Shown here: one piece after another, positions 160 through 62,982 of the stretch
Layout of the letters: every line of letters begins with the position of its first letter
Numbering within the stretch: position 1 is the first letter of the stretch
From: Leucoraja erinacea
Lineage: Eukaryota
Assembly: GCF_028641065.1 (NCBI RefSeq)
Contig: NC_073381.1
Coordinates: forward strand, 59,830,001 to 59,894,000
DNA length: 64,000 nt
Direction of reading: 5' to 3'
Position numbers and translations under genes: made by a program
The notes under the pieces: model-generated
The model's input: only the letters and a program-made list of their open reading frames with translations
Told to the model about the DNA's origin: nothing
Database searches by the model: none

Positions 160-999
160 GTGTAGGAAGGAACTGCAGATGCTGGTTTACACCGAAGATG
201 GACATAAAAATTTGGAGTAACTCAGCGGGTCAGGCAGCATCTTTGGAGAAAAGGAATAAGTGACGTTTTGGGTTGAGACCCTTCTTCAGACTGAGTCGGG
301 AGAGGGAAACAAGAGATAATGAAAAGGTACATGGAACACATGAATGAAAGATATGCAAAAGGACAAATTAAAGCCAGCTGCGACGATCAAGTATAAGGTG
401 AAGCCCACAATGGTCCATTGTTGGCTGTGGGGATGGTGATAACTAGTGATGAAAATGGACAATCCAGAAGGACGGCAGTGAAAGTAGGACTAGGATGGGT
501 GAGGGAAGGAGAGAGGGGGATTTAAGGGTTGTTTGAAGTTAAATCAATATTCATACTATTGGGTTGTAAACTGCCCAAGCGAAATATGAGGTGTGTAGGA
601 AGGAACTGCAGATGCTGGTTTACACCAAAGATAGACACAAATTGCTGGAGTAACTTAGCGGGCCAGGCAGCATCTCTGGAGAGAAGGAGTGGTTGATATT
701 TCGGAAGGGTCTCGACCTGAAACATCACCTATTCCTTCTCTCCAGAGATGTTGCCTGTCCCACTGAGTTACTCGAACATTCTGTGTCTATCTTCAAAATA
801 TGAGGTGCTTTTCCTCCAATTTGCATTTGGCCTCACTCTGACAGTGGAGGAGGCTCAGCCCAGAATGGGAGTTAAAGTGTTTGGCAACCAGGTGATCGAG
901 TAGGCCAAGGGGGACTGAGCGAAGGTGTTCAGCGAAACGACTGCCTTGTCTGCACTTGGTCTTGCCAATATATAGGAGTCCACACCTTGAATAGCAGAG
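160..999 (-). mobile_element. Penelope-like retroelement 3' relic (GIY-YIG endonuclease C-terminus plus terminal repeat with degenerate hammerhead motif)
   Basis: Minus-strand translation CGLLYIGKTK..RFAEHLRSV..VAKHFN..LEEKHLIF (793-1017) continues as HLIFRLGSLQPNSMNIDL (~535-592), typical of a Penelope GIY-YIG domain; terminal region has CTGAAGAAGGGTCTCAACCCAAAACGTC (- strand, 262-289). Confidence 0.85.
594..795. mobile_element. Short fold-back (palindromic) Penelope-terminal-repeat element nested in the Penelope relic
   Basis: ~75-bp inverted arms; flanked by 12-bp direct repeat AAATATGAGGTG (582-593 and 796-807). Confidence 0.85.
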
Positions 1000-1140
1000 T
1001 TTTGATGTGATGCTCATGACCTATGCAGATGAAGTCGGATTCATCACAAAATAAATCGCAAAGTCTAGTCTAATACGTGTATAACTATTATAAATAATTG
1101 TGAATGACTTATAGAAGCAAAACTATATGTTGCCATATAC

Positions 1141-1550
1141 TAGTTTATTTAGTTTATTGTCACATGCACCGAGGTACAGCAAAACTCTTTTGTTGCATGC
1201 TAACCTGTACCTGAATCTGGTGGTATGCATTTTCACACATCTATACCTTTTGCCTGATGGGAGAGGGGAGGGGCAAGTGGCCAGTGGCCAGGGTGTGACT
1301 CATCCTGGCCTTGCCGAGGCAGCGTGAGGTTTAAATTGAGTCAACAGAAGGGAGGTTAGATTGTGTGATGGTATGGGCTGCATCGCTGCAATTTCTTGCG
1401 GTATTGGATGGAGCTGTTCCCAAACCAAGCTGTGATGCATCCTGATAAAATGCTTTCGATGGTGCATCTGTAGAAGTTGGTGAGAGTTGTTGGGGACATG
1501 CCAAACTTCCTAAGCCATCTAAGGAAGTAGAGGCGTTGGCTAGTTTCTTT
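1141..1550 (-). mobile_element. Rex1/Babar-type LINE 3' fragment, internally deleted
   Basis: Minus strand encodes degenerate ESILSGCITAWFGNSSIQYRKKLQ; ends in GTGACAATAAA plus (CTAAA)-type tail. Confidence 0.7.
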
Positions 1551-3067
1551 GGTACAATCATCTTTTCAATAAATGAACATCAACTTCCAAAACATGCCCA
1601 TTAGGACTTTTGTGGCTTAAAAAAGTCTTAATTGTAATAGCTACTTCCAGGGCTTTCAGATCAGAATGGTATTCACAGATTTGCTCTTGGATCTGGTAGT
1701 GTTGTGTTAAACCCCTGTCTCACGGTGCGAGTCGACCCACGAGTGACCCAGAGTTTAGAACAAACTCGTAGTAATCACGTACAATTAATGTAGTGGGAAC
1801 GTCGGAACACATGGACGCAACTTAGCGACTCGTGGCGCTAACGGCAGGTACCCGTGAAACTTGTTAACTCTTGAAAAATTTCAAACATGTTTAAAGTTTT
1901 CCACAAGCCAAATTTACTCTTGAAGTTAAAAATGTAAACATTTAAACTCGTTGTAAGAACGCAATGGCCCGTGAGTTTACCGTAGTGACTCGTGAGTAAC
2001 TCATGGGTTTGGCCTGAGTGCCAGAAGTGAAATGTTGAAGATTAGTCAGATCTTAATGGAAAATTTTCAGTGAAGGAGCAAAAAGCACTCACCGGGGATC
2101 TGAGCGAAAAGAATGAACCATGCAGTGGGGGGAAAACCCGCATTGTGAGAGGTAATTAGTTCCCTTCAGAACTTTAACTTTTCACGTTGAAACGGTGCCA
2201 TGAATCCTTGTTAGATTAATGCACTTTTTATGGAGAAGCAGATATATGGGACAGGTGTCCCGTCTCAGGATATATATCCGAAAAATGTTATGCGTTTAAA
2301 TAGGGGGTTTTCTCAGGCAGCACTTTCCACCCAGTCTGTTCGCGTTAAGGAGGCTTTCAGTTGTGAGACCAGACTGTAGCCACTTGTGAAGTACACTTGA
2401 TGCCCTGATGGTGAATCATTTCCTTTCAAGCGACAAGGTGCCTCCTACCTTTTCAAGGTGTGTAGGATATCTGTTGGTTCACACATCACCCAGCCTGCAG
2501 TCCTAGCCCACCGCAGTTCCAGGGAGGCCCCGTGAAGCCGGCTGGTTGGTCTGTCTTGTGTTCGCAAGCCCATTGCATGCAGCAGCTGAAATTACTGCTG
2601 GGGTCCATTCCACTTGGTTTCCTCAAGTAACCAGTAAATTACTATTAAACCTTGACATGCTTTACATAGTGACATATTCTAACATCCAGGCAAATTGTGA
2701 AGATTGCGTAATGAAACAAATAATTGAACTACCACAGGTACAAGACCCATTGACCAAACAGTGCTTCAGCAGTGAAGTACAAGAAGGGCTGGTAAACAAT
2801 AATTTTCAAAGTGATTTCTTCCAAAAGAAGCCATCTAGAAATAATGCGAGGGAAAGAAGGGGTGGGAGGATGGGGTGGGGGGAGAAGGGGAAGGGTGCAT
2901 GGGTGAGCTGCACACTTTCCCCTCTGTGGCTAACAGCAGCCTCCAAGCCCTACTGAAGGTGGCTGGAGCTGGTGGTGTCAGTAACCGTGTGGAAAATTGC
3001 CTCATTGTTTTTCAGGCTTCAGCAGCGTGGATGCGGTATGGATCCTGCAGTTGGTTTGCCTGGGAAC

Positions 3068-3400
3068 GATGGCGCAGAAGGTTGCACATGGTCCTCTCAC
3101 AGCTCCAGCGAACAAAAGGTTCGATCCTGACCTCCGGTGGTGTCCGTGTCAGGGTTAGACCTTTTCCCTGTGACCCAATGGGATTCCCCCGGCCGCTCTG
3201 GTTTCCTCCCACATCCCCAAAGAACGTAGGCTAATCTGCCGCTGTAAATTAACCCGAGTGTGTCGGTGAGTAATGGAATCTGGGACAGTTGACGAGCATG
3301 TGAGAGAGAATAAATTGCAGGGAAATGAATGGGGAATGTGATTGATGGGATTGCTGTCAGAGCTGGCATCGCCTTGATGGGCCAAATGACCTCCTTCCAT
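3068..3400 (+). mobile_element. tRNA-derived SINE (HE1-like), diverged
   Basis: A-box-like TGGCGCAGAAGG, B-box GGTTCGATCC, core GGTTTCCTCCCACATCCCCAAAGA, CR1-like 3' tail. Confidence 0.75.
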
Positions 3401-4009
3401 GTTGAAAGAATAATAAGCCAGAAAGTCAGCTCTCTGACGTTGATTTACGGGATATTCATGAAATATCATGCGCCGGCCGATAGCATTTGGAGAGTTTATG
3501 ATGCAATGATGTAACCAGTTGTAATTATGATATCAATTATGGTGTCTACACCGGATGATAGTCTACCATACAATATAGGAAAACATTCTCATATTTACAA
3601 TTAAGGGCCAATTGTATTTGGGTTTTTAATACAAATTCAGTTTTCCTGAGTTTAAATTAAAACTTGGGCCAGGCGCTGGGAAACTCTGGGACGCCACTGC
3701 TGAAGAGAACATTTGAGTTTTGTCTTTCAATCGGAGGTTCGTGGGCGGGCTGGGGTGACTGTAGGGCTCTGAAAACGTTGTTTCCCAGGGCTGGGGTGAG
3801 TGTGAAAGGGGTGGTTTCTGGGCAGATCTGCCCAATCAGCAATGTTTTGAGCCGCTGCTTTATAGAGAGACACACACTGCTATCCCTCCAGTCTACGGAC
3901 CTTGCTGTCCAGAAAAAAATAACGTTAATGTACAATTTACTTCATCTTTTTGTTAGAAGTTTACCAACTTTTTGATGAGAGATGAATTAAGGGAATAAAA
4001 CAATCTTAC

Positions 4010-4212
4010 TAGACACAAAAAGCTGGAGTATCTCAGCCAAGCCGGCAGCATCTCTGGGGAGAGGGTTGAAACATTTTTTCAGTCTGAAGAAGGGATTCGA
4101 CCAGAAACGTCACCCATTCCCTCTCTCCAGAAATGCTGCATGTCCCGCTGAGTTACTCCAGCATTTTGTGTCTATCTTCGGTGTAAACCAGCATCTGCAG
4201 TTCCTCCCAACA
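4010..4212. mobile_element. Penelope-derived fold-back element with hammerhead-like core
   Basis: Inverted arms around CTGAAGAAGGGATTCGACCAGAAACGTC (4084-4111); a further half copy at ~4327-4452. Confidence 0.8.
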
Positions 4213-4760
4213 AAAAAAAAATAGCCTATGATTGATGCCAGACTTTGAACAAATGCAGTTCAAATGGACTTTTGAATGCAATTTTGGAAGGATTGTTTCT
4301 TGAAACAAACTGCTCTAAATGAATGAAGGAAGGAATTGCAGATACTAGATTAAACCAATGATAGACACAAAATGATGGACTAACTCAGCTGGTCAGGCAG
4401 CATCTCTGGAGAATAGAAATAGGCGATGTCTCGGGTCGAGATCGTTCTTCAAGCTGGATCTTTTTATAGTGAAAAAAAACTGCTTGACATCACTCCATGT
4501 GATGATTTTTCCACACGTCGGTAGACGTTGTTGGCTCAAGAGTAACTCGGGAGAGGAACTTGCTACATCGCAGAAATAAGAAGTAAATGGCAAACTTAGA
4601 CATACACGTGGGAACTCGGTTAAACTCTTGAATATAAACTTGGAATCTCATACACAACCACGAGTCTGATTTTTTTTCTTTCACTTGGGGTCACTGGTGG
4701 GTGGACTCGCCCCGTGAGACAGGGGCTTAAGGTTGTTCTTCCAGGTGTGTTTCTTTTCAT

Positions 4761-5235
4761 TATAACCATATAACCATATAACAATTTACAGCACGGAAAC
4801 AGGCCATCTCGACCCTTCTAGTCCGTGCCGAACACATATTCTCCCCTAGTCCCATATACCTGCGCTCAGACCATAACCTTCCATTCCCTTCCCGTCCATA
4901 TAACTATCCAATTTATTTTTAAATGATAAAAACGAACCTGCCTCCACCACCTCCACTGGAAGCTCATTCCACACAGCCACCACTCTCTGAGTAAAGAAGT
5001 TCCCCCTCATGTTACCCCTAAACTTCAGTCCCTTAATTCTCAAGTCATGTCCCCTTGTTTGAATCTTCCCTACTCTCAGTGGGAAAAGCTTTTCCACGTC
5101 AACTCTGTCTATCCCTCTCATCATTTTAAAAAAAACCTTTATCAAGTCCCCCCTTAACCTTCTGCGCTCCAAAGAATAAAGCCCTAACTTGTTCAACCTT
5201 TCCCTGTAACTTAGTTGCTGAAACCCAGGCAACAT
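4761..5235 (-). mobile_element. CR1 LINE 3' end
   Basis: ORF 4846-5235 LSYRERLNKLGLYSLERRRLRGDLI..RGNFFTQRVVAVWNELP; short tandem-repeat tail (TAACCATA on + strand). Confidence 0.92.
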
Positions 5236-5649
5236 TCAAGTAAATTAGGTAAAAGATTGCATAATATTAATTTATGGTTGGTTCGTGTTTCAAAATGTTC
5301 AGTCTTTTGGTTTGACTGCCCGTTATAAAATTTTCTTTGGGTGCCTTTGCTAAATATATATTATAGTAACTATTACTATTTGTTCTTGGCATCCATAATG
5401 TGGTCCCTTTGACTGGATTGCCTGAAAGGATTCTGGCTATCCCAAATGGCATCCCAACCTAATCTGTGAAGCCCACAGCCACCTAACCCGCTGTTATTCA
5501 CTCCTTAAACAAAATGGAAAGGGGTGGTCAATTTAGTTTTATATACGAACTTACCAACAGGTTGGTAATTCATACCGATTGTACAGTTGCTGGGGAAGTC
5601 GAGGATCCATTTGCAAAGGGATGCACAGAGACCCAGTTCTGAAGGTTTC

Positions 5650-10484: not shown

Positions 10485-11130
10485 GGCCTCATTTGGAGTA
10501 TTGTATGCAGTTCTGGGTATCACACTATAAGAAGGATGTGGGGGCTTTGGAGAGGATGTAGCTGAGGTTCACCAGGATGCTGCCTGGATTGAAGTGCATT
10601 AGGAATAGGAAGCTATAAGGAGACTCAGATTATTTTCCCTGGAGTGTCAGAGGCTGAGGAGCGATGTGACAGTACGTAAAATGATGAGAGGCATAAATAG
10701 GATAGACAGTCTTTTTCCCAGAGTGAAAAAGTTAAAAGCCAAAAATTATAGCTTTAAGCTAAGTGGGGGAAAATTCTAAAGAGATTTGCAAGGCAATTAA
10801 AAAAAAACATGGAATGCCCGAGCCCTAGAAATTGCTGCCAAGGAACAAGATTGAATCAGATGTTATAGCAATATTTAGGACGCATTTAGACAGACATGTG
10901 GGGAATAGTGACCACTTGCAGGCAGTACCGGATTTACCTATAGACTTGTGAGGCTGAAGCCTAGGGCCTCAAAATCTAGGGGGCCTCCCGCCAAGGTGTA
11001 TAATATTTTTGACACTGTCATAGGCCTTTCTTACATATGCTGTCACAACACACTGTAGTGTCTAAACAACCTTTCCTTTCTTGCTAATCTGACCGCATCT
11101 AAGCAAGAAATTCAGCAAGGTGTTGAACTG

Positions 11131-11518
11131 TTGATGGAGGCATACCCAGAAGATGTTAACCTGAAACTTACTGATGAACATTTGCACTTTCACCGGTACG
11201 TGAGACAAAACCATAGGCCTACAGAAGAGCAGTCTCTGTCTCATACAGACCTTTATCAAATTATATACAAGGAAAAAATTCAGATGGCCTTCCCTAATGT
11301 GGAAGCAATCTTGCGGCTGTTTCTTAGCTTAATGGTCACTAACTGCTCGGGAGAGAGGTCTTTTTCAAGACTCAAAAGAATTAAAAATGAATTAAGGGCC
11401 ACAATGTCTCAAGAGAGGTTGTCGGCACTGAGCATTCGGTGACAAACTTAGACAAACAAATTTTGATGAACTTCTGGATGATTTTGCAATGAGGAAGGCT
11501 AGAAAAAAACTTTTTTAG
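11131..11518 (+). pseudogene. hAT transposase C-terminal dimerisation domain remnant
   Basis: FPNVEAILRLFLSLMVTNCSGERSFSRLKRIKNELRATMSQERLSALSI, frameshifted into FDELLDDFAMRKARKKLF*. Confidence 0.9.
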
Positions 11519-11840: not shown

Positions 11841-13045
11841 TAGACAATGGACAATAGGTGCAGGAGTAGGCCATTTGGCCCTTCGAGCCAGCACCGCCAT
11901 TCAATGTGATCATGGCTGATCATCCCCAATCAGTACCCCGTTCCTGCCTTCTCCCCATATCCCCTAACTCCGATATTTTTAAGAGCCCTATCTAGCTCTC
12001 TCTTGAAAGCATCCAGTGAACCGGCCTCCACCGCCCTCTGAGGCAGAGAATTCCACAGTCCCACCACTCTCTGTGAGAAAAAGTCTTTCCTCATCTCCGT
12101 TCTAAATGGCTTACTCCTTATTCTTAAAACTGTGGCCCCTGCTTCTGGACTCCCCCAACATCGGGAACATGTTTCCTGCCTCTAGCGTGTCCAAGCCCTT
12201 GACAATCTTATATGTTTCAATGAGATGCCCTCTCATCCTTCTAAACTCCAGAGTGTACAAACCCAGCTGCTCCATTCTCTCAGCATATGACAGTCCCGCC
12301 ATCCCGGGAATTAACCTTGTAAACCTACGCTGCACTCCCTCAATAGCAAGAATGTCCTTCCTCAAATTAGGGGACCAAAACTGCACACAATACTCCAGGT
12401 GTGGTCTCACCAGGGCTCTGTACAACTGCAGAAGGACCTCTTTGCTCCTATATTCGATTCCTCGTGTTATAAAGGCCAACATGCCATTCATTTTCTTCAC
12501 GGCCTGCTGTACCTGCATGCTTACTTTCATCGACTGATGTACAAGGACCCCCAGATCCCATTGTACTTCTCCTTTTCCCAACTTGACGCCATTTAGATAG
12601 TATTCTGCCTTCCAGTTTTTGCTATCAAAGTGGATAACCTCACATTTATCCGCATTAAACTTCATCTGCCATGCACCTGCCCACTCCCCCAACCTGACCA
12701 AGTCACCCTGCATTCTCATAGCATCCTCCTCACAGTTCACATTGCCACCCAGCTTTGTGTCATCTGCAAATTTGCTAATGTTACTTTGAATCCCTTCATC
12801 CAAATCATTGATCTATGTTGTAAATAGCTGGGCTCCCAGCATCGAGCCTTGCGGTACCTCACTAGCACTGACTACACTAGCCTGCCATTCTGAAAGGGAC
12901 CCGTTAATCCCTACTCTTTGTTTCCTGTCTGCCAACCACTTCTCTATACATGTCAGCACTCTACCCCCAATACCATGTGCCTTAATTTTGCCCACTAATC
13001 TCCTGTGTGGGACCTTATCAAATGCTTTCTGAAAGTCCAGGTACA
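11841..13045 (-). mobile_element. CR1 LINE, 5'-truncated, nested in the hAT element
   Basis: YLDFQKAFDKVPH, SKFADDTKLGG and RPHLEYCVQFWSP motifs; short-repeat tail (GACAAT on + strand). Confidence 0.95.
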
Positions 13046-18766: not shown

Positions 18767-18983
18767 ATGTGCGGGAAAGAACAGCAGGTGCTGGCTTAAA
18801 TCCAAGATAGATACAACATGCTGGAGTAACTCAGCGGGACAGGCAGCATCTCTGGAGGAATGGGTGACATTTCGGGTCGAGACTGCTTTGATTCTGAAGA
18901 AGGTTCTTGTCCCGAAACACCACCCATTCCCTCTCTTCAGAGATGTTGCCTGTCCCGCTGAGTTACTCCAACATTTTGTGTCT
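18767..18983. mobile_element. Penelope-derived fold-back element
   Basis: Inverted arms around CTGAAGAAGGTTCTTGTCCCGAAACACC. Confidence 0.8.
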
Positions 18984-21650: not shown

Positions 21651-21669
21651 TTAATTGCAAGACAAGATT

Positions 21670-21822: not shown

Positions 21823-24800
21823 TAACCAATTAAGCACAATTAGAATCTGGGATTGTGAATTTTTGAAAAAGTGGCATTTCCATACTATGTAATATCACTG
21901 AGAATCGATCGTCATTATGTTCAGCCTGTGCCACTTTAAAAATTATGTGACATGGGCCTGTCCAACTTAGGCGATTTTTCAGGCGACTGTCAAGTTGCCG
22001 GCAGTTGCCTGAAAATCCGCAACTGGAATGGCAACGGTAATATGCTCATTCTGCGTAATTTTGCGATGATGGCCATTGAAGTTATAAAATCCCCTGTATG
22101 TGCCTGGCATAAAGCTTGCTTACTCTTCTGCTGATGTACCAATGCTTTATGTGAGATCAACTGCAGTGCAACGCAGAGTCATTGCTTTTTAATGTTGAAA
22201 TCTTCAATTTGGATTAACTTTAATACCTGTAGTTGAAATGAGTTGATGCTTTAGGGTATTATTCCAATATATTCCTCGTACTTCACTGTGCAATAGATTT
22301 TCTTGGTATAGAGTTTTTGCTTTGTAGAAGCCGTAATGAAATTCAATATGTTGAATGTCTGGTGTTGTAGCAACCCCTGAGGTTATACGGGAAAATCACT
22401 CTGTTTTATGTACTACTATATATCCCAAGGCCTCTTGTGATTTCCTGACTTTGAAAATTGATATTATAATTAACAGACCAAGGTTCATACCATAAAAGTT
22501 TTTCTTTTAACTGCAGAAATTTAAACATCATGTTAAATAAGAATAACATGTAGTGTAGAACATAATTTAACAAACTAAAGTTCAAAGAGCTTCTTAGAAT
22601 CATAATGGACAAACATTTAAAGCATCTCCTCGTGATGTTTTTGCAGAGATGTAAGGAAATACGCCATGAGGTACCGGAGAAGAGAAAATGGGAGAATTTG
22701 AGGGATTTATTCAAGGTGAAAGTGAATTCCTGATACCCGCTCTTAAGCAGATGTAGTGATACTTGGCAATTATTGGATTTAAGGAGGAGATGCATATTAG
22801 ACTGAAGGTACATACATTTGGGATGGACGGGAATAGAGGGAGATGCACGGGATCTGAGGAATTAATTATTTCAATGTAAATTTAAGTCTTTGAGTGATTG
22901 GAAGATGCTATAAATGGATGGGTAAGTATGAACGGCAAGTTTATCTTGACATGAATTTGTGTGAACAGAACAGCAAGTTGGTTTAATTGGGTGAATGATA
23001 TCAGGCTATCCAGGCAAGAATGAAAGGAAGCAGTAGAGATGCGTATAATTATGACTATTGAAAGATACTTGAATTGGTGCGGACAGAAAAGGTATAGAGG
23101 GATATGGGCCCAGCATGGGCCAATGGGACTAGTTTAGTTAAGCTAACTTGGTCAGAATGGAAGGATTGGGCTGAAGAGATTGTTTCAGTGTCGTGTATCT
23201 CAATGACTCTGTCCTGGATTCTGCTTCATTCTTCTGTAGGGCATGAAGCTGAACAATTTGGAATCAGGCCCTTTGGCTCACTGCCCATATCAGTCAACAA
23301 GAACTGATCTATAATAATCCTAATTTCTAGCTGACTCAACCCATTATCTCCAATGGCATTGCATTTCAAGTAGTTATCTAAGGGTTATTAAATTTTGTGT
23401 AACCATCAAAAAGGATGAAATTCAATATGTTGGATGGTGGGAGGAGAGTGATAATTTTGTATCCCTAATATTTGGGTGGATGAAGTTGGAGCTCATGCAT
23501 GTTTGGAAATTAATCAGGCAGCCTACTAACTAACACAAGGGAAACATTAACGCAAGGGAAGGTAACACCAGGAGTCCTTATCGCGAATGCAGAGGGTGAT
23601 TTAATGATGGTTGAATCAATGTTACAAAGAGGGAATAAATAGATGAGATCAATCCAAGGAAAAAAATATTGGGACATTGTGATGGTGATGTAAGAATGAA
23701 TCTCTCGATAGTCTGTGGGTTGGATTATTTAGAAGACGGTGGGAATCAAGCAAGGGCAGGCTTCTAAAACTAAAGATCGGCTGCGGAAAGGAGGAATATG
23801 TGGTTTTAAAAAACAATTCTCTTAATGGTTACTTATAATGTGCATGCTTTTACCATTTAAATTGTGACCAGATTCCAGTGGGGTTAGTAAATCTCTACTT
23901 AGTGATTATGATGCTGCCAAAAAAGATGACAGGAATGTTAACTCTAAATACCCTACAGGATAGCTGGAGTGGGTAATAGAAAATGTCAGGTTGGTCTGAG
24001 GCACATTGGCATGATTGAATATTCTATGCCAAGAGAGAAATATGCCAGCACTTCTGGTTGAGTGCATTATCTGTAGAAAGCATATATAGGAAATAAGTTG
24101 GGCAGCCTGGCTTATTAATACAGAATACTGGGAGAAATGCAAATCTGCTTGTGTTATTTAAAATGGGGAATGCTGGAAATACTTGGCAATATCTGTGGAG
24201 AGAGAGGAACAGTTGTTTCAGTTGCTCCCCCTACATCAGAACTCTGATTTAATTAGTAGCTGCAGAAGCTGAAATCTAATACAATAAACAAGCTGCTGGA
24301 AGAACTCAGCAGGCAACATCACTGGAGGGAAATGGACTGATGACATTTCTTGTCGGGATACTTCGGACTGGCTAATTGGTCTGAAGAAAGGTCACGATCT
24401 GTTCTGTCCACGTTCTCCAAAGATGCTGCGTTCCCCGCTGAGTTACTTCAGCAATTTGTGTCTTTCTTCGGCTTAATTGCTCATCTTATGTTAGAGCATA
24501 AGTTTATGTGATAAGAACAATATTAAGCCATTCAACCCATCAAGTCTACTCCGCCATTCAATCATGGCTGATCTATCTTTCCCTCTTAACCCTATTCTCC
24601 TGCCTTCTCCACTGACACCCGTACTAATCAAGCATATTCTAAGCACATTGTCCTGGGATCTTTTTGATATCAAACTGGTCACATCTGCCCCTCACAATGG
24701 CGGACATTAATCATGTTGTTAGGCAATAGTCAAGTCAACCCGAGTTTATTGTCGTATGCTTAAATACAATCAGGTGCAGGTACAATTACAATCGTGCATG

Positions 24801-25258: not shown

Positions 25259-25643
25259 TCCTGATGCAAGACAGAAACCACTTCAAAAGCATAAAAGATA
25301 TTTCAGATCAAGAAATAAATGTTAACTTAAGTTAATTAGGGGCATCACAGTGGTACAGCTACTAAAGCTGCTGCTTCACAGCTGTTTGTTCCTGAATTCT
25401 GGTGCTGTTTATGTGCAGCTTGCAATTTGTCAATGTGATTGTGTGTGTTTTTCCCCAGGTGTTCCAATTTCCTCTTACATCTCCCAGACATGCAGATTGG
25501 CAGGTTATTTGTTGTTGTGCAATTCTCCTAGTGTGTAGGTTAGTAGTGAAATCAGAGGAGATTTCAAGGCGATTGGAGGAGAATAAAATGAGATGCGTGT
25601 GAAAGGTGTGCTTTATTATTGAAATGGACAGTCAAAATGAGTT

Positions 25644-25840
25644 GGAAGGAACTGCAGATGCTGGTTTAAACCAAAGATAGACACAAAATGCTGGAGTAAT
25701 TCAGCGGGACAGGCAGCATCTCTGGAGAGAAGGAATGGGTGACGTTTCGGGTCGGGTCTGAAGAAGGGTCTCGACCCGAAATGTCACCCATTCCTTCTCT
25801 CCAGAGAAATTGTCTGTCCCGCTGAATTACTCCAGCATTT
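25644..25840. mobile_element. Penelope-derived fold-back element with well-preserved hammerhead-like core
   Basis: Inverted arms; CTGAAGAAGGGTCTCGACCCGAAATGTC at 25758-25785. Confidence 0.85.
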
Positions 25841-27680: not shown

Positions 27681-30600
27681 GTACTTTGTACTGTAATAAA
27701 CCATAGTCTCTTGCGAAGTTAGTCAGCATGTCTACTGCCTTGCCACTGTGCTGCCCACAGTATTTTGTACTATAATAATTAAAAAATTAAAAAATGAAAT
27801 AATAGCAAGTAACTGCACACATAATCCTAAATCACAGCTCTAATCATAATCGTAATTTATTAGCCAAGTATGTTTTGCAACATATGAGGAATTTGGTTTG
27901 CCATACAGTCATACCAAAAATGAAACAAGACACAACCACATACAAATTTGACATAAACATCCACCACAGGCTCTCCTCCACATTCCCCACTGTGATGGAA
28001 CGCAATAAAGTCTTATCTTCATTCCTCCTTTTCTCCCGCGGTCGGAGGAGTTAAACCATCCACAGCCGGCGATCGAGCTCTCACGTAGGGGTGGTCTGAG
28101 CTCCCGCATTGGGACGGTCAAACCTCCTGCGACTTGGAGTCCCCGAAGTCAGTCCCTAAACCCACGCAGGTCACGGGGAGAAGGTACAAACGCAATACCG
28201 ACAGCCCCCATAGTCAGGATCGTGCTTGGGTCTCTGGCGCTGTAAGGCAGGTGTGTTGCAGGAACAATTAAATTGGGCCTAATTTCTGTATTTCTTCGAA
28301 AAGGACTGAGGTCCACACCAAAGGCATTCAAATGAAATTCAAAATCTGACCTTTACTATAAAAACAGGAAAAAATCTTTTTAAGAATGAATTTGAGATAA
28401 CGGGTTGATTCCATTCCTGAAACTGTCAAATGTAAGAAATTCCTTAATGTGGCTGAAGAATGTTAGTTGTGAGGGTAATGTATTTGCTGCTGTAGACAAT
28501 TGACCCATTACTTGCATTTTCTGTACTTTAAAAAAATTGGGATTGTGTAGAAGTGATCTGTGATATCACAATGATCACCAACAGATAGAAAGAAAGTGTT
28601 TTCCTTATGCCACTCACTTGGATAAATCACATCTTTAATTAACCACATCATTTGCTTTGTTAACAATTTAGAATTGATGTAAGGGCAACATTTATCACGT
28701 ACATTCAACACACTTATATCTCCATTTATATGTGTACGTAAAAAAGGGTCTCGACCTGAAACATCACCCATTCCTTCTCTCCAGAGATGCTGCCTGGCCC
28801 GCTGAGTTACAGCAGCTTTTGTGACACCATTGTAACTTGCAAACATAATGCCATATATTCATCCATCGTTACCTGAAATGTCCTGAACAACAGTACTTCA
28901 ATAGTTCATCAAAAGGACACGAGCAGTCGAAGAAGGTAGTTCACCTCCAACTTTTCAAGGACTGTTAGCAATGGGTATTAAATTCTGACCTTTCAGTTAA
29001 GTTTTATGAAAGATTGGAGAATTGTTCTTATGTTAATTTGACACAACTACTGATTTACTGAGTCTCTATTGTTACTGAACCACAACATTCCACTATAAAT
29101 GCCATCTCTGAATTAAACACAACCAAAACAATATTTGAATTGTTCTGCCAATTTTCCCCCCCTCATTTCTTTCAAGCAATCATATTACACATTCATTGAT
29201 ACAGATGAAGTTTCATAGTGCTGAGGTAGACCACAGTATTGATTTACATCCTGAATAAGAATGTAATATTAAAAATTTCAATATGCTGGGGAGATCCACA
29301 TCCGCAATTTATCTTCCATTTCGGAATTATCGAACGCTTAAGTGCATGTGGTCTGAGCCTTGAGTTTGCTTCTGGGATTTGCAGTAGCTATTGGGTTGCA
29401 AAAGCAATCAGTTTACAGCCAAGCTGGTGCAATTTTGACCTCTGCAAGAACAGTGTGTTGCGTCAATATTTCATCGTCAAGGAGTATTGCCTTTTACAGT
29501 ATTGTGCGCTCTTACCAAAAGTCTCACTAATTCTTGGGGTATTAATAAACATCCTGGGCCATTTGTAATGAGAAGTGTCTCAGGACCCTACTTGGTGTTC
29601 AGCTGGGCTATTTTCTCAGTAGTTTGCAGATTTTTGCACTTCCTGGTAAGAATTAAAGAGCATTTATCACAAAGATATTTGGACAGTTGATGACATGTTG
29701 GACCAAAATGAGATGAATACTCTGTGATTAAAACTCTGTAATTATTCCACATTTCCCCATCTGTTTTCCAATATATGTTTGCTTGGCAATGACCAAATAT
29801 TCAGACAGGAGACTAAAAGTTTTATCAAAAAGATCAATTTTAAGATAATTAAAAATGGAAGAAGAGGGTGAATCAGCAAAATAAATATATTTTTTTCCAT
29901 TTAATAGCATGTGATTTGAGGATACATTTATTTGATGAAGATGTCGTCTGCTAAGCCCTCTTTTATAGACCACCCTATGTATACATGTGCTTTAAAAACT
30001 TAAGATAGAACAATCATTTTTATACCAGGATATGGCTTTACATATTTCTCTGGACTCAGTCCTCAACTCGAACATCATGATCTTCTTGCTATCATTACAA
30101 GTGGGGATATTAGCGGATGATTCTGCTACATTCAAATCCATTCCCAACTCCTAAGTAAATGAAGCAATCTGTGGCAACATTCAGGCTCGTGCTGATAAGT
30201 GGCAGGTAACATTTGTGCTGCACGTGCCAGGCATTGTCGGTCTCCAACAAAGGGAATCTAGCTAGGTCCATTTTGACATTGTCCCTGAATTTCTCCAATA
30301 TAAATGCTCTTGGGTTTATTTGTGACTGGAATTTAAATGGACCACTAGCATAAATGTTGTGGCTACAAGTGTCGTTCAGAGCCTTGATATACTACAACTA
30401 TCATTTCATGCCCTGGCTCTCCATAGCCTTTCCGCCATCTATGTGACACATCAGGAGGGTTACAGAATATTTACAAGGGCACCTGCAAAGAGGATGAGTG
30501 ATGGATGCATGCGAAGTGGTCCTGCATTTTTTGCCTCTCCAAGTTGTGCACAGTTGGAATTACATTAGCATACTTATTGAGGCAGAACAATGTATTTGGC

Positions 30601-35775: not shown

Positions 35776-36223
35776 TGGTAGACACTAATTGCTGGAGTAA
35801 CTAAGCGGGACGGGCAGCATCTCTGGAGAGAAGGAATGGGTGACGTTTCGGGTCAAGTCAGGAGAAAGGGAAATGAGAGATCTAGACGGTGATGTGGAGA
35901 GATAAAGAACAATGAATGAAAGATATGCAAAAAAGTTACGACGATAAAGGAAACAGGCCGTTGTAAGCTGTTTGTAGGGTGAAAACGAGACGCTAGTATG
36001 ACTTGGGTGGGGGATGGATAGAGAGAGATGGAATGTCGGGGCTACCTGAAGTGAGAGAAATCAATATTCATACCACTGGGCTGTAAGCTGCCCAAGCGAA
36101 ATATGAGATGCTGTTCCTAACCAGTCAGAAGTAGGGTCTTGACCCAAAACGTCAACGCTGAGTTACTCCGGCTTTTTCTGTCTATCTTAGGTTTAAACTA
36201 GCATCTGCAGTTACTTCCTACAC
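35776..36223. mobile_element. Penelope 3' fragment with inverted terminal repeat
   Basis: Minus-strand EQHLIFRLGSLQPSGMNIDF (36058-36117) between inverted terminal repeats; 12-bp TSD ATTTCCCAATGG (35764-35775, 36224-36235). Confidence 0.88.
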
Positions 36224-36896
36224 ATTTCCCAATGGAATCTCAGCAATTAGAATCCCTAAGGAGCCTAGGAGAGGAGAATAGTGACAGATGTGGTGCCGTC
36301 TGCCATTCATTACTCACAGATTAATGTGCCTGACGACATGTGCAGTAAGTTCTAGACTTGCTCAAATATTAATGGCTGAGTACCAATAGTTCCGATTAGA
36401 ACTACCAACTCCAGCAAACAGTATTGGATTGAATGCTGTTTTGTGAATCCAGTGAATCAAAAGGATGAGCAAGTCGTGTGTGTCAATCCATTTCATGGTG
36501 TTGATTCCATCATTTTTCTTTCAATATCACCTTAAAGCTTCAGGATCTTATTTTGCTGAATGTTACTGAGTATTTAACTTGGGGGTTCTGGGGCTGGTGG
36601 TGTTCATCTTTAAATGTACACATTTGGAAGGTCTTGATCTCATCTTACAGCAGATGCTGCTTGGTCAACTCTTTCATTCAAGTTTTGTTTTCAGAGGTGA
36701 GACTAAAAGCTTTTAAGGTCTGAATGATTTTCAAAAATTAACTGATGCATGGAAATTCAGTAACGCAGATTGCGTTTTACTTCATTTAACTGGGTATCGT
36801 AATTTTAGATGGAATGTGAATTCACTTGTTGCCTGCTCTTGGATATTGAAGTGATATAGGTACTGATGTATTTTGCTCACTTTTACATCAGAGGAG

Positions 36897-37010
36897 AGTC
36901 TGAAGAAGGGTCTCGACCCGAAACATCGACTATTCCTTCTCTCCATAGATGCTGCTTCACCCGCTGAGTTTCTCCAGCATTTTTTTGTGTATCTTCGATT
37001 GTTCCAGCAT
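36897..37010 (+). mobile_element. Solo Penelope terminal repeat beginning at the hammerhead-like motif
   Basis: CTGAAGAAGGGTCTCGACCCGAAACATC at 36900-36927. Confidence 0.8.
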
Positions 37011-37059
37011 CTTAAACATCGTACTTGTCTCTTGACCACTTGTATCCACATGAAAACTG

Positions 37060-55830: not shown

Positions 55831-56032
55831 TCTGAATAATAGAAGAATTTTTGGAGAAAAAGTACTGTGGATTAATCAATTTTGTAAGAATTTAAGTAGA
55901 ATAAAGCTATTAATTTTTTTTTAAACATAGATCAATGTTTAAAAAAAAATTAATAGCTTTATTCTACTTAAATTCTTACAAAATTGATTAATCCACAGTA
56001 CTTTTTCTCCAAAAAATCTTCTATTATTCAGA
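55831..56032. repeat. 202-bp near-perfect palindrome with no spacer
   Basis: Two 101-bp arms symmetric about GA|TC (55931/55932); two mismatched pairs by manual alignment. Confidence 0.95.
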
Positions 56033-57310: not shown

Positions 57311-57312
57311 TA

Positions 57313-58735
57313 AACATAGAAACATAGAAAATAGGTGCAGGAGTAGGCCATTCGGCCCTTCGAGCCTGCACTGCCATTCAATATGCTCATGGCTGATCAT
57401 CCAAAATCAGTATACCGTTCCTGCTTTCTCCTCATATTCCTTGATTCCATTAGCCCTAAGAGCTATATCCAACTCTCTCTTGAAAACATCCAGTGAATTG
57501 GCCTCCACTGCCGCCTGCGGCAGAGAATACCACAGATTCACAACTCTCTGGGTGAAATTTATTTTCCTCATCTCAATCCTAAATGGCCTACCTTTTATTT
57601 TTAAACTGTGCCCCTGGTTCTGGACTCCTACAACATCGGGAATATTTTTCCTGCATCTAGCCTGTCCACTCCCTTAATAATTTTATATGTTTCTATAAGA
57701 TCCCTTCTTATCCTTCTGAATTCCTGTGAATTCCTGTGAATATGTCCAGTCGATGCATTCTTTCATAGAAATATAGAAAAATAGGTGCACAAGAAGGCCA
57801 TTTGGCCCTTCGAACCAGTATCGCTATTCAATATGATCATGGCTGACCATCTAAAATCAGTACCCCCGTTCCTGCTTCTTCCCCATATCCCTTGTGTCCT
57901 TTAGCCCTATGAGCTAAATCTAACTCTCTCTTGAAAACATCCAGTGAATTGGCCTCCACTGCCTTCTATGGCAGAGAATTCCACTGATTCACAACTCTCT
58001 GGGTGAAAACGTTTTTCCTCATCTCAGTTCTAAATGGCCTACCCCTTATTCTTAAACTGTGACCCCTGGTTCTGGACTCACCCAACATCGGGAACATTTT
58101 CCTGCATCTAGCCTGTCCAATCCTTTAAGAATTTTATATGATTCAATAAGATATCCTCTCATCCTTCTAAATTCCAGTGAATACAAGCCCAGTTGACCCA
58201 TTCTTTCATCATTTGTCAGTCCCGCCATCCCGGGAATTAACCTGGTGAACCTACGCTGCACTCCCTGAAAAGCAAGAATGCCCTTCCTCAAACCAGGAAA
58301 CCAAAACTGCACATCATACTCCAGGTGTGGTCTCACCAGGGCCCTGTACAACCGCAGTAGGACCTCCTTGCTCCGATACTCAAATCCTCTCGCTATGAAG
58401 GCCAACATGCCATTTGCTTTCTCCACTGCCTGCTGTACCTGCATGCTTACTTTCAGTGACTGACGTACAAGGACGTCCAGGTCTCGTTGCACCTCCTTTT
58501 TTCCTAATCTGACACAATTCAGATAATTATCTGCCTTCCTGTTCTTGCTACCAAAGTGGATAACCTCACATTTATCCACATTATACTGCATTAGCTATGC
58601 ATCTGCCCACTCACCCAACCTATCCAAGTCACCCTGCAGCCTCAGTATCCTCCTCGCAGCTCACACTGCCACCCAGCTTTGTGTCATCCGCAAACATGGA
58701 GACATTACATTTAATTCCTTTGTCTAAATCGTTAA
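57313..58735 (-). mobile_element. Two tandem CR1 LINE 3' fragments (57313-57765 and 57765-58735)
   Basis: ORF 58052-58591 RT C-terminus, FADDTKLGG; two 3' UTR/tails. Confidence 0.93.
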
Positions 58736-61700
58736 TATGCCTATACTGCCTTGTAACTACCATACAAGCAGTGATCCAATCCTTACAAGATGCTTTCTGT
58801 GGTACATCTGTAGAAAATGATGAGTAATTGCGACATCTCAAATTTCCTTGGCCTTCTGAGGAAGTAGAGGCATTGGTATGCTTTCTTGGCAGCAGCATCA
58901 ATATGGTTAGACCCGTACTATTGGTGGTGATATTTATGCCCAGGAATAGAAGAAGTGGGATTATGTTTAGTTTAGTGATGGGAATAGGATCAGGGCAAGA
59001 TATTTTAAAGCTTGCTTTTAGCTGCAGCTGGAGAGTATGAAGTATTGACATCACTGCCCTACTGTCATCTCTGCAGTGGAATGATAAGCCTTGTCAGCCT
59101 GGACTAATGATGTTTCTCAAACAAAGCTGACAGGAGCTGGGTTACTAGGTATGAAAGTCATAAGGTCAAAAATCATAAGTATTAGGATTAGGATTAGGCC
59201 TTTCGGCCGATCACTTCGACTCCGCCATTCAATCATGGTTGATCTAGCTCTCCCTCCTAACCCCATTCTCATGGTTTTCATGCATCCAATGCTCATTCCA
59301 AACTTTCTTCCTGAATTCATATAACATGACAGAAATCCTTTCTAACAGATATACAGTAAATGTTCCCACTTTGGAGTGATACAAATCAGAGAGCACTTAC
59401 CAATACAATCGGGTTGTATCAACCCAATGACTTAATTAAACTTGCCTGGAGGATTGTAAGGGAATAAACAGAAATCTAATAAAAAATAAATAAAAAGATC
59501 ACATCTAAAATCCATCCAAGGTCAAAATTGGTGTTACCAGTTATTACAGTTCCCGTTATTGGTAACCTCTCCAGTGGTGATAGTTTAGTGCTGGTGAACA
59601 CGACGAGCTGGATGTATGCTCAAGTCATTCTTCATCTGCAAGTTTTGAACTCTGACTCTTGGATACATTTTTCAATGCTTTAGGTCTTTAATTATAAACC
59701 GTTGTTTCGATTGTGTTTAACAAATCATAGGATCAAAGATACAACCTGATGCACAGAAAACAATGATAGGGATGAATTACATATTTTGTGGCAATCTGTT
59801 ATTAGTCTCCTGATCCACATCCATCTTTGAACCGACATCATGGAAAATGGATTAATTTTATTACTGCTTCTGCAGGTACAAAACTACAGGCACTTAAAGT
59901 GATTTGTTGTGTGTGAAGTGCTTAGAGCTGCCTCTGTGAGATTGATGAAGTTTTGTATAAATTCAACCCTTGCAGTACATTATAGAGTAGAGGTCTCTCT
60001 GCATTGCAAATGTTTTCCTGATGTAAGGTTGCATAACAAACAATGAGTTCGCCTGTATCCAGATTGCTCAGCTGTTAGTCACATTGCTAAATTTATGGGG
60101 TCCATTTAATGAGAACCTTATGTTAGTAGGGATCTAATATCTCAGTGTGTCAGTGTCTTTCCCCTTGGGATTCTTGATCAATCAACAAAAGCAATGTTTG
60201 TGAATTATTTTATGAATATCTTCACTTGTGCCAGGATGTGCAAGAGTGCTCCCATAGCTCCACAAACACCACCATTGCTCCTACCCACCCCTCCCATACC
60301 ATGCCGAATGGGGGGATGCTTTCAGCAAGGCAGATTGTGCATTATTACCAACTCCTTTCCTAGCTCAAGCTGGCTTTGGTGGTGTGACAATTGCAGCCAC
60401 AATTTATGCTAATTGTGCTGATGTGGTCTGCAAACCAATTATCAATTAAACATGGCCTCTTTGTTAAAGGATGAAGTTCCAGCAAGGCAGTGGGCCAAAT
60501 GTAGATCTGTGCAGATTTTTACTTGCTTATATGAATACTAATGAAATATAGCTCATTATTTTGTAATTTCTCAATTTTGGAATGCAGGTTTAAATTGTTG
60601 GTAGGTTTTGAGGAACAAGATTTCTCGTCTGCTAACTGTTAAAATATTGAAATAAATCTATTTTAAAAAAGCTCAGGATGTTTTAGACTGGCGCCCTGCC
60701 AAGAATGGGTTCTCCAAGCACTGAGTTGCACTTGTGATGCTTGGAGAAATATAAAGATGGGTTCTCTCCTATTATTGCAGTCAAGGACGGAAGGCAAGCT
60801 TCAGTTGGGAACTGGATGTCCTGCAGTTGCTCCAGGATGCCTCAAAACGGACTGGATGGAGAAAGAGGAAAGTATTCTGTTGCCACACATAGGGCTCATC
60901 TGTCTTAACAGGTGCTGGGCAAATGCCACAACTCATGGTATGGTACTTTCTTTGTCACATGAACCGAGGTGCAGTGAATAAGCACAAAAGTAGAAACTAC
61001 ACCTTTCTTTTAAATCCTGCAACAGAGCACCTCGACACTGAAAATTTCCATTTGCAATCCGGGTGCTATATGATTGCCTAATACTTAATTTTCATGGTAT
61101 TTGGAGCAAGTACTAACTCTGAAAATGTTCAATTTTGAGTTGGCCAGTCCAACGGGATGTGAATGTTGTTGGGGCTGGTCCAGGATGAATGCATTTATTG
61201 TCAACATGTATGGGTAAAATTGTGTTTTAATTCTTCAAAACAATATTATCCAAAGAAAAGGCTCTGTTGCAAGCTTCCAAAATGCAAGGACTCAAATTCC
61301 ATGTGTTGTGGCACATCCTGGTATAAGTACCAGCATGTTACAACTGTAGATTATTGAACCCATTGCTAATGGGTTTTGTAGGATGATGAGATTTAAGCAT
61401 TTTAAGCATGTACCATTTACGCATGTCCTGGTGTAAGTGCCAGCATGTTACTACTGTCGATTATTGGCACAATTTCTGATGGGTTCAGAGGGGTGACAAG
61501 GGTCCATTTCAGGAGGGCTTCCACCTTGGGATATATGGCAGTGATGGAACTGCCCAGCATCTTCAACTACTGCAGTTAAATCCCCTAACTCTGTCCATCA
61601 CTTAAAAGAATAAGGAAGGACGGGGTGGTGTTGCAACTGCTGCCTAACAACTACAGTGACATGGTTTCGACACTGACCTCCAGTGAAGCCTGTGCTGAGC

Positions 61701-62585
61701 TTGCAAAGACATTTGGGTTCATTAACTTCTATAAATTGCTCCCATAGTATAGATGAATGGTAGATTGTGGGGGAGTGGATATGATGACTCTGTGAGCCAG
61801 CCTGGGCATGATGGGCAAAATTTTCCATGAGAAATTTGAAATTGTTCATATTGTATGGTACTCCAACTCAGAAATAAATGGGACCTCCTGGAGGGCCTCT
61901 TGTGATGATTTAGTTGATGTGACTCCAGAGTGAGTGAGTCAGCTGCCGGCCTTGTTTCTAGACTGAGCATATGATAACTCCAAGCACAGTGAGACCCAAA
62001 CACTACCCTGCTCAAGCAGTTGAGTTTGTAGAGGACAAGAAGGGGCCATGCCAAGTTTTAAAATGCTAGCTAACTCCAAGCTAAGCCTAGAGGCAGGTGG
62101 AACTGAAATTCTGACTCTCTTGTGAGTTATGTACGGAAGTCCTCTGAAAGGAACATGATTTTCTTTTGTGTTCCAATAGCGACTGTGTATTTCATCTTTA
62201 CCAATGACCAATAATCAATTTAACTGTCATAGAAACACCATTATAGAAGTTCTACAAAGGCCAAGGTTCACCATGATTGGATAACTTGGGATAGGCCATG
62301 TGTATGAACATTCTCGTGGTCTGATTAAAAGAAACACTACTCCAGTAGTTTATTCTCATTGGTTTTAACATTAGCTGGAACTTAGTTTATCTATATTTTG
62401 GTAATGAAAGGTCCTGAATAAATTTGAACCTAACAAAGCCCTATTTTAATGTTGGTACTTTTTCATGAGATATTTTATCATTAGCATAGTTTCATAGTTA
62501 TACCATATGTATCACAATTAAAAAATGATTAATTATCAATGGCGTTCTTTATCTATCATAATTATAATATGGTAATGAGTGCTAT

Positions 62586-62982
62586 GTCACCCATTCCTTC
62601 TCTCCAGAGATGCTGCCTAAGTTACTCCAGCATTTTGTGTCTAGTTTAGTTTAGTTTAGAGATCGCTTAGTTTTAGTCAATCGTCGGTTTAAACCAGCAT
62701 CTGCAGCTCCTTCTAACACAGTTTCTAAAGTTTGCCATTAACTATATTTTCTACAACCCTGCATCTCAGTCCTGAGAGTAAAATCTCTTTGATTCTGAAA
62801 CAGAATGGCCTGTTTTAAATGAAGATAGGTGTTTAAGAAGGAACTGCAGATGCTGGAAAATCGAAGGTAGACAAAAATGCCGGAGAAACTCAGTGGGTGA
62901 GGCAGCATCTATGGAGCGAAGGAAATAGGCAACGTTTCGGGCCAAAACCCTTCTTCAGACTGATGTGAGTCTTCAGTCTGAA
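62586..62982. mobile_element. Two Penelope terminal-repeat fragments (62586-62720 +; 62829-62982 -)
   Basis: Family sequence; minus-strand CTGAAGAAGGGTTTTGGCCCGAAACGTT at 62931-62958. Confidence 0.8.

What the first reader, a model, noticed from the sequence alone, without database searches (positions are those of the whole stretch)
594..62982. Family of ~200-bp fold-back retroelements centred on a minimal hammerhead-ribozyme motif
Seen: at least 6 palindromic copies (594-795, 4010-4212, 18767-18983, ~24290-24470, 25644-25840, 48289-48476) plus longer or solo relatives (160-999, 35776-36223, 36897-37010, 40146-40536, 62829-62982). They carry intact or decayed CTGA(A/T)GA-A-GGGTC-TC-GACCC-GAAAC-(G/A)TC, i.e. 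hammerhead core boxes CUGANGA and GAAA around a helix II, ending in a UH site. One copy keeps helix II through G-U pairs (GGGTT-TT-GGCCC, 62931-62958). Three copies have 10-12-bp target duplications, so they inserted as units. Known: Penelope-like elements carry minimal type I hammerheads that lack helix III and can act as dimers. Inference: these are non-coding, retrozyme-like parasites or recurrent fold-back insertion products that form long dsRNA hairpins in the cep85l pre-mRNA. Caveats: extra A after CUGANGA and only ~2 bp of evident helix I.
Basis: partly seen in the sequence, partly recalled or inferred. Interest (0 to 1): 0.8.

Follow-up and report, generated by a model that had tools for sequence, protein, structure and literature searches.

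The report
Fold-back stubs of Penelope retrotransposons
The hairpin-shaped repeats are real, but they are the ordinary truncated, head-to-head insertion products of a Penelope-like retrotransposon whose end carries a known minimal hammerhead ribozyme motif, not a separate self-copying family.

Summary
In detail: palindromes, hammerhead boxes and 10-14-bp target duplications lie where stated. Both arms are the terminal ~60-135 nt of a Penelope-like element (PLE); longer copies run upstream into GIY-YIG and RT coding sequence, and one near-full-length copy was fetched. In 80 x 10 kb of this genome, 62 of 292 insertion clusters are head-to-head fold-backs (5 tail-to-tail). Among 67 fold-backs (62 plus 5 from the window) 64 junctions are distinct and 29 keep a target duplication (shuffled control 0.7%). 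The optional 37-nt PLE tail sits on exactly one arm in 48 of 61 (30 expected). This is the published PLE 'inverted pLTR plus tail' insertion at extreme 5' truncation, so a recurrent by-product, not a retrozyme-like family; the only thrice-repeated junction is a passenger in a MITE-like element. The hammerhead core is invariant across six subfamily consensuses, and its extra A and 2-bp helix I have precedent. Fold-backs put the two ribozymes on opposite strands, and copies do not start at the cleavage site. Likeliest mechanism (inferred): priming on both nicked target strands from the two PLE start sites. The scan noted the same thing before in two other genomes.

The parts
594..795 (.). Head-to-head PLE fold-back: left arm ref 830-942 (tail), right arm ref 817-907; 12-bp TSD AAATATGAGGTG; inserted in the GIY-YIG part of an older PLE copy
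160..991 (-). 5'-truncated PLE copy (ref 349-941: endonuclease 3' part, 3' UTR, hammerhead, tail), split by the 594-795 fold-back
4010..4212 (.). Fold-back: left arm ref 847-902 (no tail), right arm ref 808-933+ (tail); no TSD found
4329..4457 (-). Solo PLE end, ref 807-935, decayed hammerhead
18768..18983 (.). Fold-back: left arm ref 822-935+ (tail), right arm ref 811-901; 14-bp TSD with one mismatch
24290..24475 (.). Decayed fold-back; both arms align weakly to the PLE end
25638..25840 (.). Fold-back: left arm ref 826-935+ (tail), right arm ref 810-894; arm duplex buries GAAA and the cleavage site; no TSD found
25758..25787 (+). Minimal hammerhead motif in the right arm: CTGAAGA, extra A, GGGT-CTCG-ACCC, GAAAT, GTC
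28741..28820 (+). Solo PLE end, ref 815-894
35779..36224 (.). Long-arm fold-back: left arm ref 546-902 with the GIY-YIG C-terminus (EQHLIFRLGSLQPSGMNIDFSHFR*), right arm ref 802-942 with internal deletion and tail; 12-bp TSD ATTTCCCAATGG
36897..37012 (+). Solo PLE end of another subfamily, ref 809-924, intact core boxes and helix II
40145..40536 (.). Long left arm ref 549-906 plus a short inverted arm ref 804-831 (40509-40536); no shared variants with the 35779 copy, so an independent event
45536..45628 (-). Solo PLE end, ref 812-904
48287..48474 (.). Fold-back: left arm ref 810-902 (full core, CTGATGA), right arm ref 847-942 (tail); 10-bp TSD TACTTTTTTA
62586..62720 (+). PLE end split between core (ref 837-902) and tail (ref 902-942) by a GTTTA-repeat insertion
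62830..62962 (-). Solo PLE end with tail, GGGT-TTCG-GCCC/GTT subfamily; the only window arm with core, helix II and the C15.2-G16.2 pair all intact

Best explanation
These are dead-on-arrival insertions of an endonuclease-bearing Penelope-like retrotransposon, cut short to the pLTR. SHOWN: each arm is the element's terminal segment (hammerhead 5' edge, ref ~808, to one of two 3' ends, ref 905 or ref 942 = plus 37-nt tail); arms face head-to-head; the pair is flanked by one 8-18-bp target duplication; both arms tend to come from the same subfamily; one arm carries the tail; junctions differ. INFERRED: the PLE RT-endonuclease makes a staggered cut, and both target 3'-OH ends prime cDNA on the element RNA, one at each of the two start sites that bound the tail. 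Both cDNAs stop within ~60-135 nt, most often at the hammerhead's 5' edge, and their ends are joined by microhomology or end-joining. The hammerhead is a constrained part of the parent element's pLTR and is a bystander in the stubs. Confidence about 0.93 for the identity (PLE by-product) and about 0.55 for the two-strand priming step.
For: Element continuity into GIY-YIG (PF01541, E 1.8e-4, 22.2 bits, just under the 22.6 cut-off) and RT (PF00078, E 8.2e-6 and 3.5e-4, under the cut-off). Near-full-length copy L126 has pLTR-body-pLTR, its upstream tail running on into the 5' region. Adjacent arms: 66 head-to-head, 8 tail-to-tail, 12 tandem of 86 pairs. TSD score >=8 in 29 of 67 vs 0.7% of 1321 shuffled pairs. 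One tail only in 48 of 61 vs 30.1 expected, p 3.4e-6. 64 distinct junctions of 67. Arm-arm identity 86.7% (n=59) vs 81.4% between insertions (n=3951), p 8e-11. No polarity at the centre: core arm longer 23, tail arm longer 15, equal 10 of 48 (p 0.26). Literature: a PLE protein cleaves and extends both strands and starts at two sites bounding the tail, without need of hammerhead cleavage (PMC11167929). Inverted pLTR, one-sided tail and 8-10-bp TSD are described (PMC3846280; PMC8557442).
Against: 13 of 61 fold-backs break the one-tail rule (10 with none, of which 3 are MITE passengers; 3 with both), and long copy L117 has tails at both ends. 38 of 67 have no TSD at score >=8. Both Pfam scores are below the curated cut-offs, 3 of 4 element ORFs, 62 other than those cited gave no hit, and the PDB had no RT match. 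Junctions were read from BLAST ends in copies about 10-25% diverged, so overlaps and 'insertions' are fuzzy. Same-subfamily arms could also reflect one subfamily being active at a time, or arm-to-arm conversion. The sequence cannot separate two-strand priming from self-priming.
Confidence: 0.8

Rival explanations
1. Same PLE origin, but the inverted arm arises by self-priming: one strand (antisense RNA or nascent cDNA) folds back at a short palindrome and is copied on itself, as proposed in PMC3846280.
For: Junction overlaps of >=3 nt in 14 of 64 non-MITE fold-backs vs 6.7% under an exact-match null (p 7e-5), often at the hammerhead's own palindromes (helix II, ACGT, CAGTCTG, GAC/GTC). Arms share subfamily variants.
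Against: 40 of 64 junctions show extra bases rather than overlap. A first strand that carries the tail must be the longer arm at the centre, yet this holds in 15 of 48, against 23 the other way. BLAST overlaps tolerate mismatches, so the null is too low.
Confidence: 0.3
2. An independent non-autonomous, retrozyme-like family of ~200-bp fold-back elements that copies itself by hammerhead cleavage and circular RNA.
For: Units have TSDs; core boxes are invariant across six subfamily consensuses, 0 of 15 vs 22 of 66 downstream positions varying, p 0.008; 54 junction classes at +-2 nt include 7 with 2-4 members.
Against: 64 of 67 junctions are distinct, and the one triple lies inside a shared ~700-bp TIR element. 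Only 12 of 67 have two full cores, always on opposite strands. The arm duplex buries the cleavage site. 3 of 124 arm starts fall at ref 838-842, the cleavage site. Only 45 of 168 arms keep core plus helix II. Fold-backs span several subfamilies.
Confidence: 0.04
3. Two separate PLE stubs, the second inserted later next to or into the first in inverted orientation.
For: PLE ends are dense (292 clusters in 800 kb), nested insertion occurs (594-795 inside 160-991), and a PLE protein can cut at its own pLTR junction (PMC11167929).
Against: One TSD encloses both arms in 29 of 67; orientation is 66 to 8; arms share subfamily variants; the tail is on one arm far more often than independent draws give.
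Confidence: 0.03

Closest known systems
Complex insertions of canonical EN+ Penelope-like elements: inverted 5'-truncated pLTR, optional 30-40-bp tail at one end, 8-10-bp TSD (PMC3846280; PMC8557442 Fig. 2 legend)
   Same: Head-to-head inversion at the 5' end, 37-nt tail on one arm, TSD around the whole unit, palindromes at some junctions, tail continuing into the element's 5' region in the full copy.
   Different: Here most units have no ORF between the arms: both arms are cut down to the pLTR, and they are very abundant (about 170,000 by extrapolation from 62 in 800 kb).
Minimal type I hammerheads (min-HHR) of metazoan PLEs (PMC4209133)
   Same: CUGANGA, extra nucleotide between A9 and G10.1, G10.1-C11.1 pair, palindromic C15.2-G16.2 without loop 3; mostly single motifs, and dual motifs 100-700 bp apart on opposite strands already reported.
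   Different: Helix II is 4-5 bp (paper: 7-8 bp in Schistosoma) and helix I only 2 bp (paper: 4-5 bp, but 2 bp in D. virilis); activity untested here.
PAc, Poseidon PLE of Anolis (PMC11167929)
   Same: Hammerhead at the pLTR-5' region junction, two 3' ends bounding a tail, no sign of ends at the cleavage site.
   Different: No ATG in stem II here; the two ends lie about 66 and 103 nt after the cleavage triplet; clade membership not tested by a tree.
Non-LTR retrozymes of animals (PMC7229834; bioRxiv 10.64898/2026.07.22.740005)
   Same: Short, non-coding, PLE-related, type I hammerhead.
   Different: Retrozymes are same-strand tandem repeats with a ribozyme in each unit; these are inverted pairs with unique junctions.
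L1 5' inversions by twin priming (recalled, not read)
   Same: Inverted 5' portion inside one TSD, with microhomology or extra bases at the junction.
   Different: In L1 the two parts copy different stretches of the RNA; here both arms copy the same stretch.

Membership tests
EN+ Penelope-like element | RT followed by a C-terminal GIY-YIG endonuclease in the parent element | tested here: met
   PF00078 E 8.2e-6/3.5e-4 upstream of PF01541 E 1.8e-4, both under curated cut-offs; order seen
EN+ Penelope-like element | pLTR made by a partial tandem copy | tested here: met
   L126: ref 791-942 upstream, ref 1-907 downstream
EN+ Penelope-like element | Optional 30-40-bp tail, often at one end only | tested here: met
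   37 nt; one arm only in 48 of 61; 3' ends pile at ref 899-907 and 937-942
EN+ Penelope-like element | Variable 5' truncation with adjacent inverted copy and TSD | tested here: met
EN+ Penelope-like element | Spliceosomal intron in the pLTR | tested here: inconclusive
   Pyrimidine tract and YAG precede TCTGA in several subfamilies; no spliced copy in the loci held; no GT..AG joint among 15 of 96 joints shown
Penelope/Poseidon clade | RT phylogeny | not tested
   No tree built; no reference RTs were fetched
Minimal type I hammerhead (PLE type) | Core boxes CUGANGA and GAAA, NUH, helix II with G10.1-C11.1, extra nucleotide after A9, palindromic 15.2-16.2 | tested here: met
   invariant in six subfamily consensuses
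Minimal type I hammerhead (PLE type) | Compensatory changes in the helices | tested here: inconclusive
   Only one-sided changes: helix II U-A 124 / U.G 25 of 168; helix I U-A 92 / U.G 28 / C-G 7 of 168
Minimal type I hammerhead (PLE type) | Self-cleavage after H17 | not testable with these tools
   No assay; polyA reads show no pile of ends but cannot show cleavage
Non-LTR retrozyme | Same-strand tandem repeats with a hammerhead in each unit | tested here: not met
   66 of 86 adjacent pairs head-to-head, 12 tandem; two full cores in 12 of 67, on opposite strands
Non-LTR retrozyme | Unit copied with fixed structure | tested here: not met
   64 distinct junctions of 67; the triple is carried by a TIR element
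Non-LTR retrozyme | Abundant linear and circular RNA of unit length | not testable with these tools
   No small-RNA or circular-RNA run was available

The most novel reading that the evidence does not exclude
The stubs are a mass fossil record of a PLE 'strong-stop' step: the element RNA begins right at the hammerhead's 5' edge, a dimeric RT-endonuclease primes both target strands on that one uncleaved RNA at the two start sites, each cDNA runs off the RNA 5' end after 100-135 nt, and a longer insertion needs a template jump to the repeated 3' end. That would explain in one model the pLTR, the tail, the one-sided tail (48 of 61) and the pile-up of 5' ends at ref 804-816 (37 of 65 reference-type arms vs 4 in ref 700-803; 10 of 16 TSD-bounded solos). 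I did not find this model in searches; subscription journals, Repbase and Dfam were not searchable.
Probability: 0.3. Interest if true: 0.6.

Novelty: new member of a known kind. Interest (0 to 1): 0.22.

Why it matters
As a finding it is ordinary: every structural trait is in print for Penelope-like elements. Its use is as material. With roughly 170,000 fold-backs and 800,000 PLE-end loci (extrapolated from 62 and 292 in 800 kb), the genome offers enough events to test how inverted pLTRs and tails form, a step the papers read here call undefined. It also means long intronic double-stranded RNA is a genome-wide background in this host, not a feature of one gene, and that hammerhead motif searches here will mostly return dead stubs.

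Tried and rejected
Rfam scan of the window at E<=10: no hammerhead family among 15 matches. Cleavage-defined template ends: rejected, 3 of 124 fold-back arm starts at ref 838-842 against 46 at ref 804-813. The 5' pile-up as a pure alignment artefact: partly true, 21 of 94 solo copies share upstream sequence of other subfamilies, but 73 have unique flanks and 10 of 16 TSD-bounded solos start at ref 804-816. An intron from ref 619 to 810: no spanning copy in the loci held (two short hits are another subfamily's 3' UTR) and no GT..AG joint among the 15 of 96 joints shown: unsupported, not excluded. A shared origin of the two long-arm copies (35779, 40145): rejected, no shared variant in 333 sites, and none of the other top hits spans that junction. 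Tail arm as first strand of a snap-back: no polarity. Run search: no RNA holder listed. Laid polyA reads of a related organism (X23, most reads under 95% alike) cover the hammerhead-to-end segment about 3,200-fold on each strand against about 20-360 upstream, with no pile of read ends; this fits passive transcription and cannot test cleavage. PDB searches with RT pieces gave nothing relevant. The cep85l label: no support from the Atlas or Pfam; it remains a recalled motif match.
Full report
Observation. Six short fold-backs and two with one long arm are head-to-head, 3' ends outward. Target duplications flank four of them (12, 14 with one mismatch, 12 and 10 bp). Two fold-backs folded as RNA give z -19.2 and -13.8 against 200 shuffles. 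Rfam has no hammerhead match among 15 hits at E<=10.

What the arms are. A search of the own genome with the 40146-40536 copy returned 42 matches from 40 scored of 5,446 candidates. The 30 loci fetched extend upstream to different lengths and share two 3' ends 37 nt apart. Upstream lie a 3' UTR, a GIY-YIG domain (PF01541, E 1.8e-4, 22.2 bits against a cut-off of 22.6; 1 of 3 ORFs) and an RT (PF00078, E 8.2e-6 and 3.5e-4, under the cut-off; 2 of 4 element ORFs). The window's own 35779-36224 copy carries the endonuclease C-terminus. Of 16 longer loci, L126 is near full length: an upstream pLTR (ref 791-942) whose tail runs on into the 5' region, about 3.6 kb of body, and a downstream pLTR ending at ref 907. 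L117 has an inverted pLTR against its truncated RT. 'ref' is a 942-nt coordinate reference made in a script: stop codon at 622, CUGAAGA 812-818, GAAACGTC 832-839, core end 905, tail 906-942. This is an endonuclease-bearing Penelope-like element. That the host is a cartilaginous fish is my recollection of this repeat type and comes from no call.

Family or by-product. I sampled 80 stretches of 10 kb at round coordinates on contigs C1-C36: 378 alignments in 292 clusters, of which 62 head-to-head, 5 tail-to-tail, 222 single-orientation and 3 complex. Extrapolated, that is about 800,000 loci and 170,000 fold-backs (rough). With 5 window fold-backs added (the nested 594-795 copy, the decayed 24290 copy and the 40145 copy did not enter this set), 29 of 67 have a TSD score >=8, against 0.7% of 1,321 shuffled flank pairs. 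Junctions are distinct in 64 of 67; at +-2 nt they form 54 classes. The one triple (a perfect palindrome on CAGACTG, no tail) shares its flanks: it sits inside a ~700-bp element with terminal inverted repeats and was copied with it. The fold-backs belong to several subfamilies, and the two arms of one insertion are more alike (86.7%, n=59) than arms of different insertions (81.4%, n=3,951; p 8e-11). These results fit repeated, independent insertion events.

The tail. Among 61 classifiable sample fold-backs (1 of 62 dropped as ambiguous), 48 have the tail on one arm, 10 on neither and 3 on both; independent draws predict 30.1, 19.0 and 12.0 (p 3.4e-6). All 5 window copies in that call have one tail. 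Neither arm is consistently longer at the centre (core arm 23, tail arm 15, equal 10; p 0.26). Of 64 non-carrier junctions, 14 overlap by >=3 nt (exact-match null 6.7%), 6 by 1-2, 4 are blunt and 40 hold extra bases; these calls come from BLAST ends in diverged copies and are approximate.

The 5' ends. Starts pile up at the hammerhead's 5' edge: 46 of 124 fold-back arms at ref 804-813, 3 at the cleavage site (838-842), 2 upstream of 800; 37 of 65 reference-type arms at 804-816 against 4 in 700-803; 10 of 16 TSD-bounded solos at 804-816 (16 of 152 solos scored; control 1.1%). Part of the pile is an artefact of other subfamilies' 3' UTRs (21 of 94 solos). The templates were therefore mostly not cut at the ribozyme site (inference). 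Why solos show TSDs far less often than fold-backs (16 of 152 vs 29 of 67) is only partly explained by hidden long arms.

The hammerhead. The motif is CUGAAGA, extra A, GGGU-CUCG-ACCC (up to 5 bp), GAAAC, GUC or GUU. In the dead copies it decays like other invariant positions (0.93 vs 0.94 for the better half of the flank, 0.86 for all), and 45 of 168 arms keep core plus helix II. Helix changes are one-sided only. PMC4209133 (parts 1-2 of 4 read; supplements not seen) lists the extra nucleotide, G10.1-C11.1, the palindromic 15.2-16.2, a 2-bp helix I in D. virilis, weak dimer-dependent cleavage, and dual motifs on opposite strands. In a fold-back only one arm is sense, so no dimer forms in cis, and the arm duplex covers the cleavage site in both copies folded.

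Mechanism. PMC11167929 (parts 1-2 of 4; supplements not seen) shows a PLE protein cleaving and extending both target strands, starting at two sites that bound the tail, with hammerhead cleavage protein-assisted and not required. Priming from both nicked strands, one start site each, predicts head-to-head arms, one TSD, one tail, one subfamily and free junctions, as seen. This step is inferred. PMC3846280 (12 of 13 passages) describes the same architecture and proposes self-priming on an antisense template; the junction microhomology supports it, the extra bases and lack of polarity count against its simplest form. PMC8557442 (9 passages) and PMC8969392 (8 passages) give inverted pLTRs and one-sided tails as standard PLE traits. 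Retrozymes are same-strand tandems (PMC7229834, 12 of 35 passages; bioRxiv 10.64898/2026.07.22.740005, part 1 of 5 and 10 passages; its supplements closed). L1 twin priming is recalled, not read.

Expression and host gene. No listed holder of the stretch is on record as RNA. One polyA run of a related organism shows strand-symmetric coverage of the short end and no pile of read ends. A frame at ~16640-16783 (+) holds a motif I recall from CEP85L-type proteins; Pfam and the Atlas add nothing.

Verdict. Real, abundant, and explained: truncated head-to-head insertions of a Penelope-like element with a known minimal hammerhead. Searches listed no paper whose title or abstract start describes these stubs in cartilaginous fishes, but I did not open those papers, and Repbase and Dfam could not be checked. 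Two earlier notes of this scan on other genomes reached the same reading; my reading was filed before I saw them. What may be new is the quantification (one-tail rule, 5' pile-up at the ribozyme edge) and the strong-stop model it suggests.

Noticed in passing
L032:2475-2665, L040:8419-8612, L096:6664-6855: One perfect, tail-less PLE fold-back sits in the middle of a ~700-bp element with terminal inverted repeats (beginning AAGGGCCTGTCCCACTT, TAA/TTA-like flanks; Harbinger/Tourist-type MITE is a recalled label) and has been amplified as a passenger: 3 of 62 sampled fold-backs.
   Followed up: partly
ref 810/811 of the element, e.g. L126:1380-1400 and window 62955-62965 (-): A pyrimidine tract and YAG precede TCTGA in several subfamilies, like the intron end that abuts helix I in D. 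virilis Penelope; no spliced copy or RNA joint was found.
   Followed up: partly
window ~16640-16783 (+): Exon-like frame with SDSGDTGIGTS, recalled as CEP85L/CEP85-like; not confirmed by Pfam or the Atlas.
   Followed up: partly
window 55831-56032: AT-rich perfect palindrome, arms 101 nt, 98% complementary, no spacer; not matched by the PLE end.
   Followed up: no
window 20786-21274, 18341-18410, 37212-37626: Other inverted-repeat pairs (54, 39 and 34 nt) not matched by the PLE end, probably MITE-like.
   Followed up: no
window 593/796, 36118, 40506: Three separate events fall at ref 546-565 of the endonuclease region (one insertion site, two truncation points), next to CAGCATCT, an 8-mer also in the tail; the genome sample shows no hot spot there.
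   Followed up: partly
window 62586-62720: A GTTTA-repeat stretch has inserted exactly between the core end and the tail of a PLE stub.
   Followed up: no
ref 859-866 and 920-927, e.g. window 48379-48474: The tail's CAGCATCT can pair with AGATGCTG in the core, closing a stem around the shorter 3' end; a candidate RT-binding structure.
   Followed up: partly
window 12111-12812 (-), 32332-32907, 44006-44776, 48788-50754, 58052-58594: Several LINE RT/endonuclease-like frames (CR1-type by recalled motifs); 11059-11439 (+) looks like a hAT dimerisation region (recalled).
   Followed up: no
L117 (element orientation 2985-5327): Long 5'-truncated copy with an inverted pLTR and tails at both ends, an exception to the one-tail rule.
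   Followed up: partly
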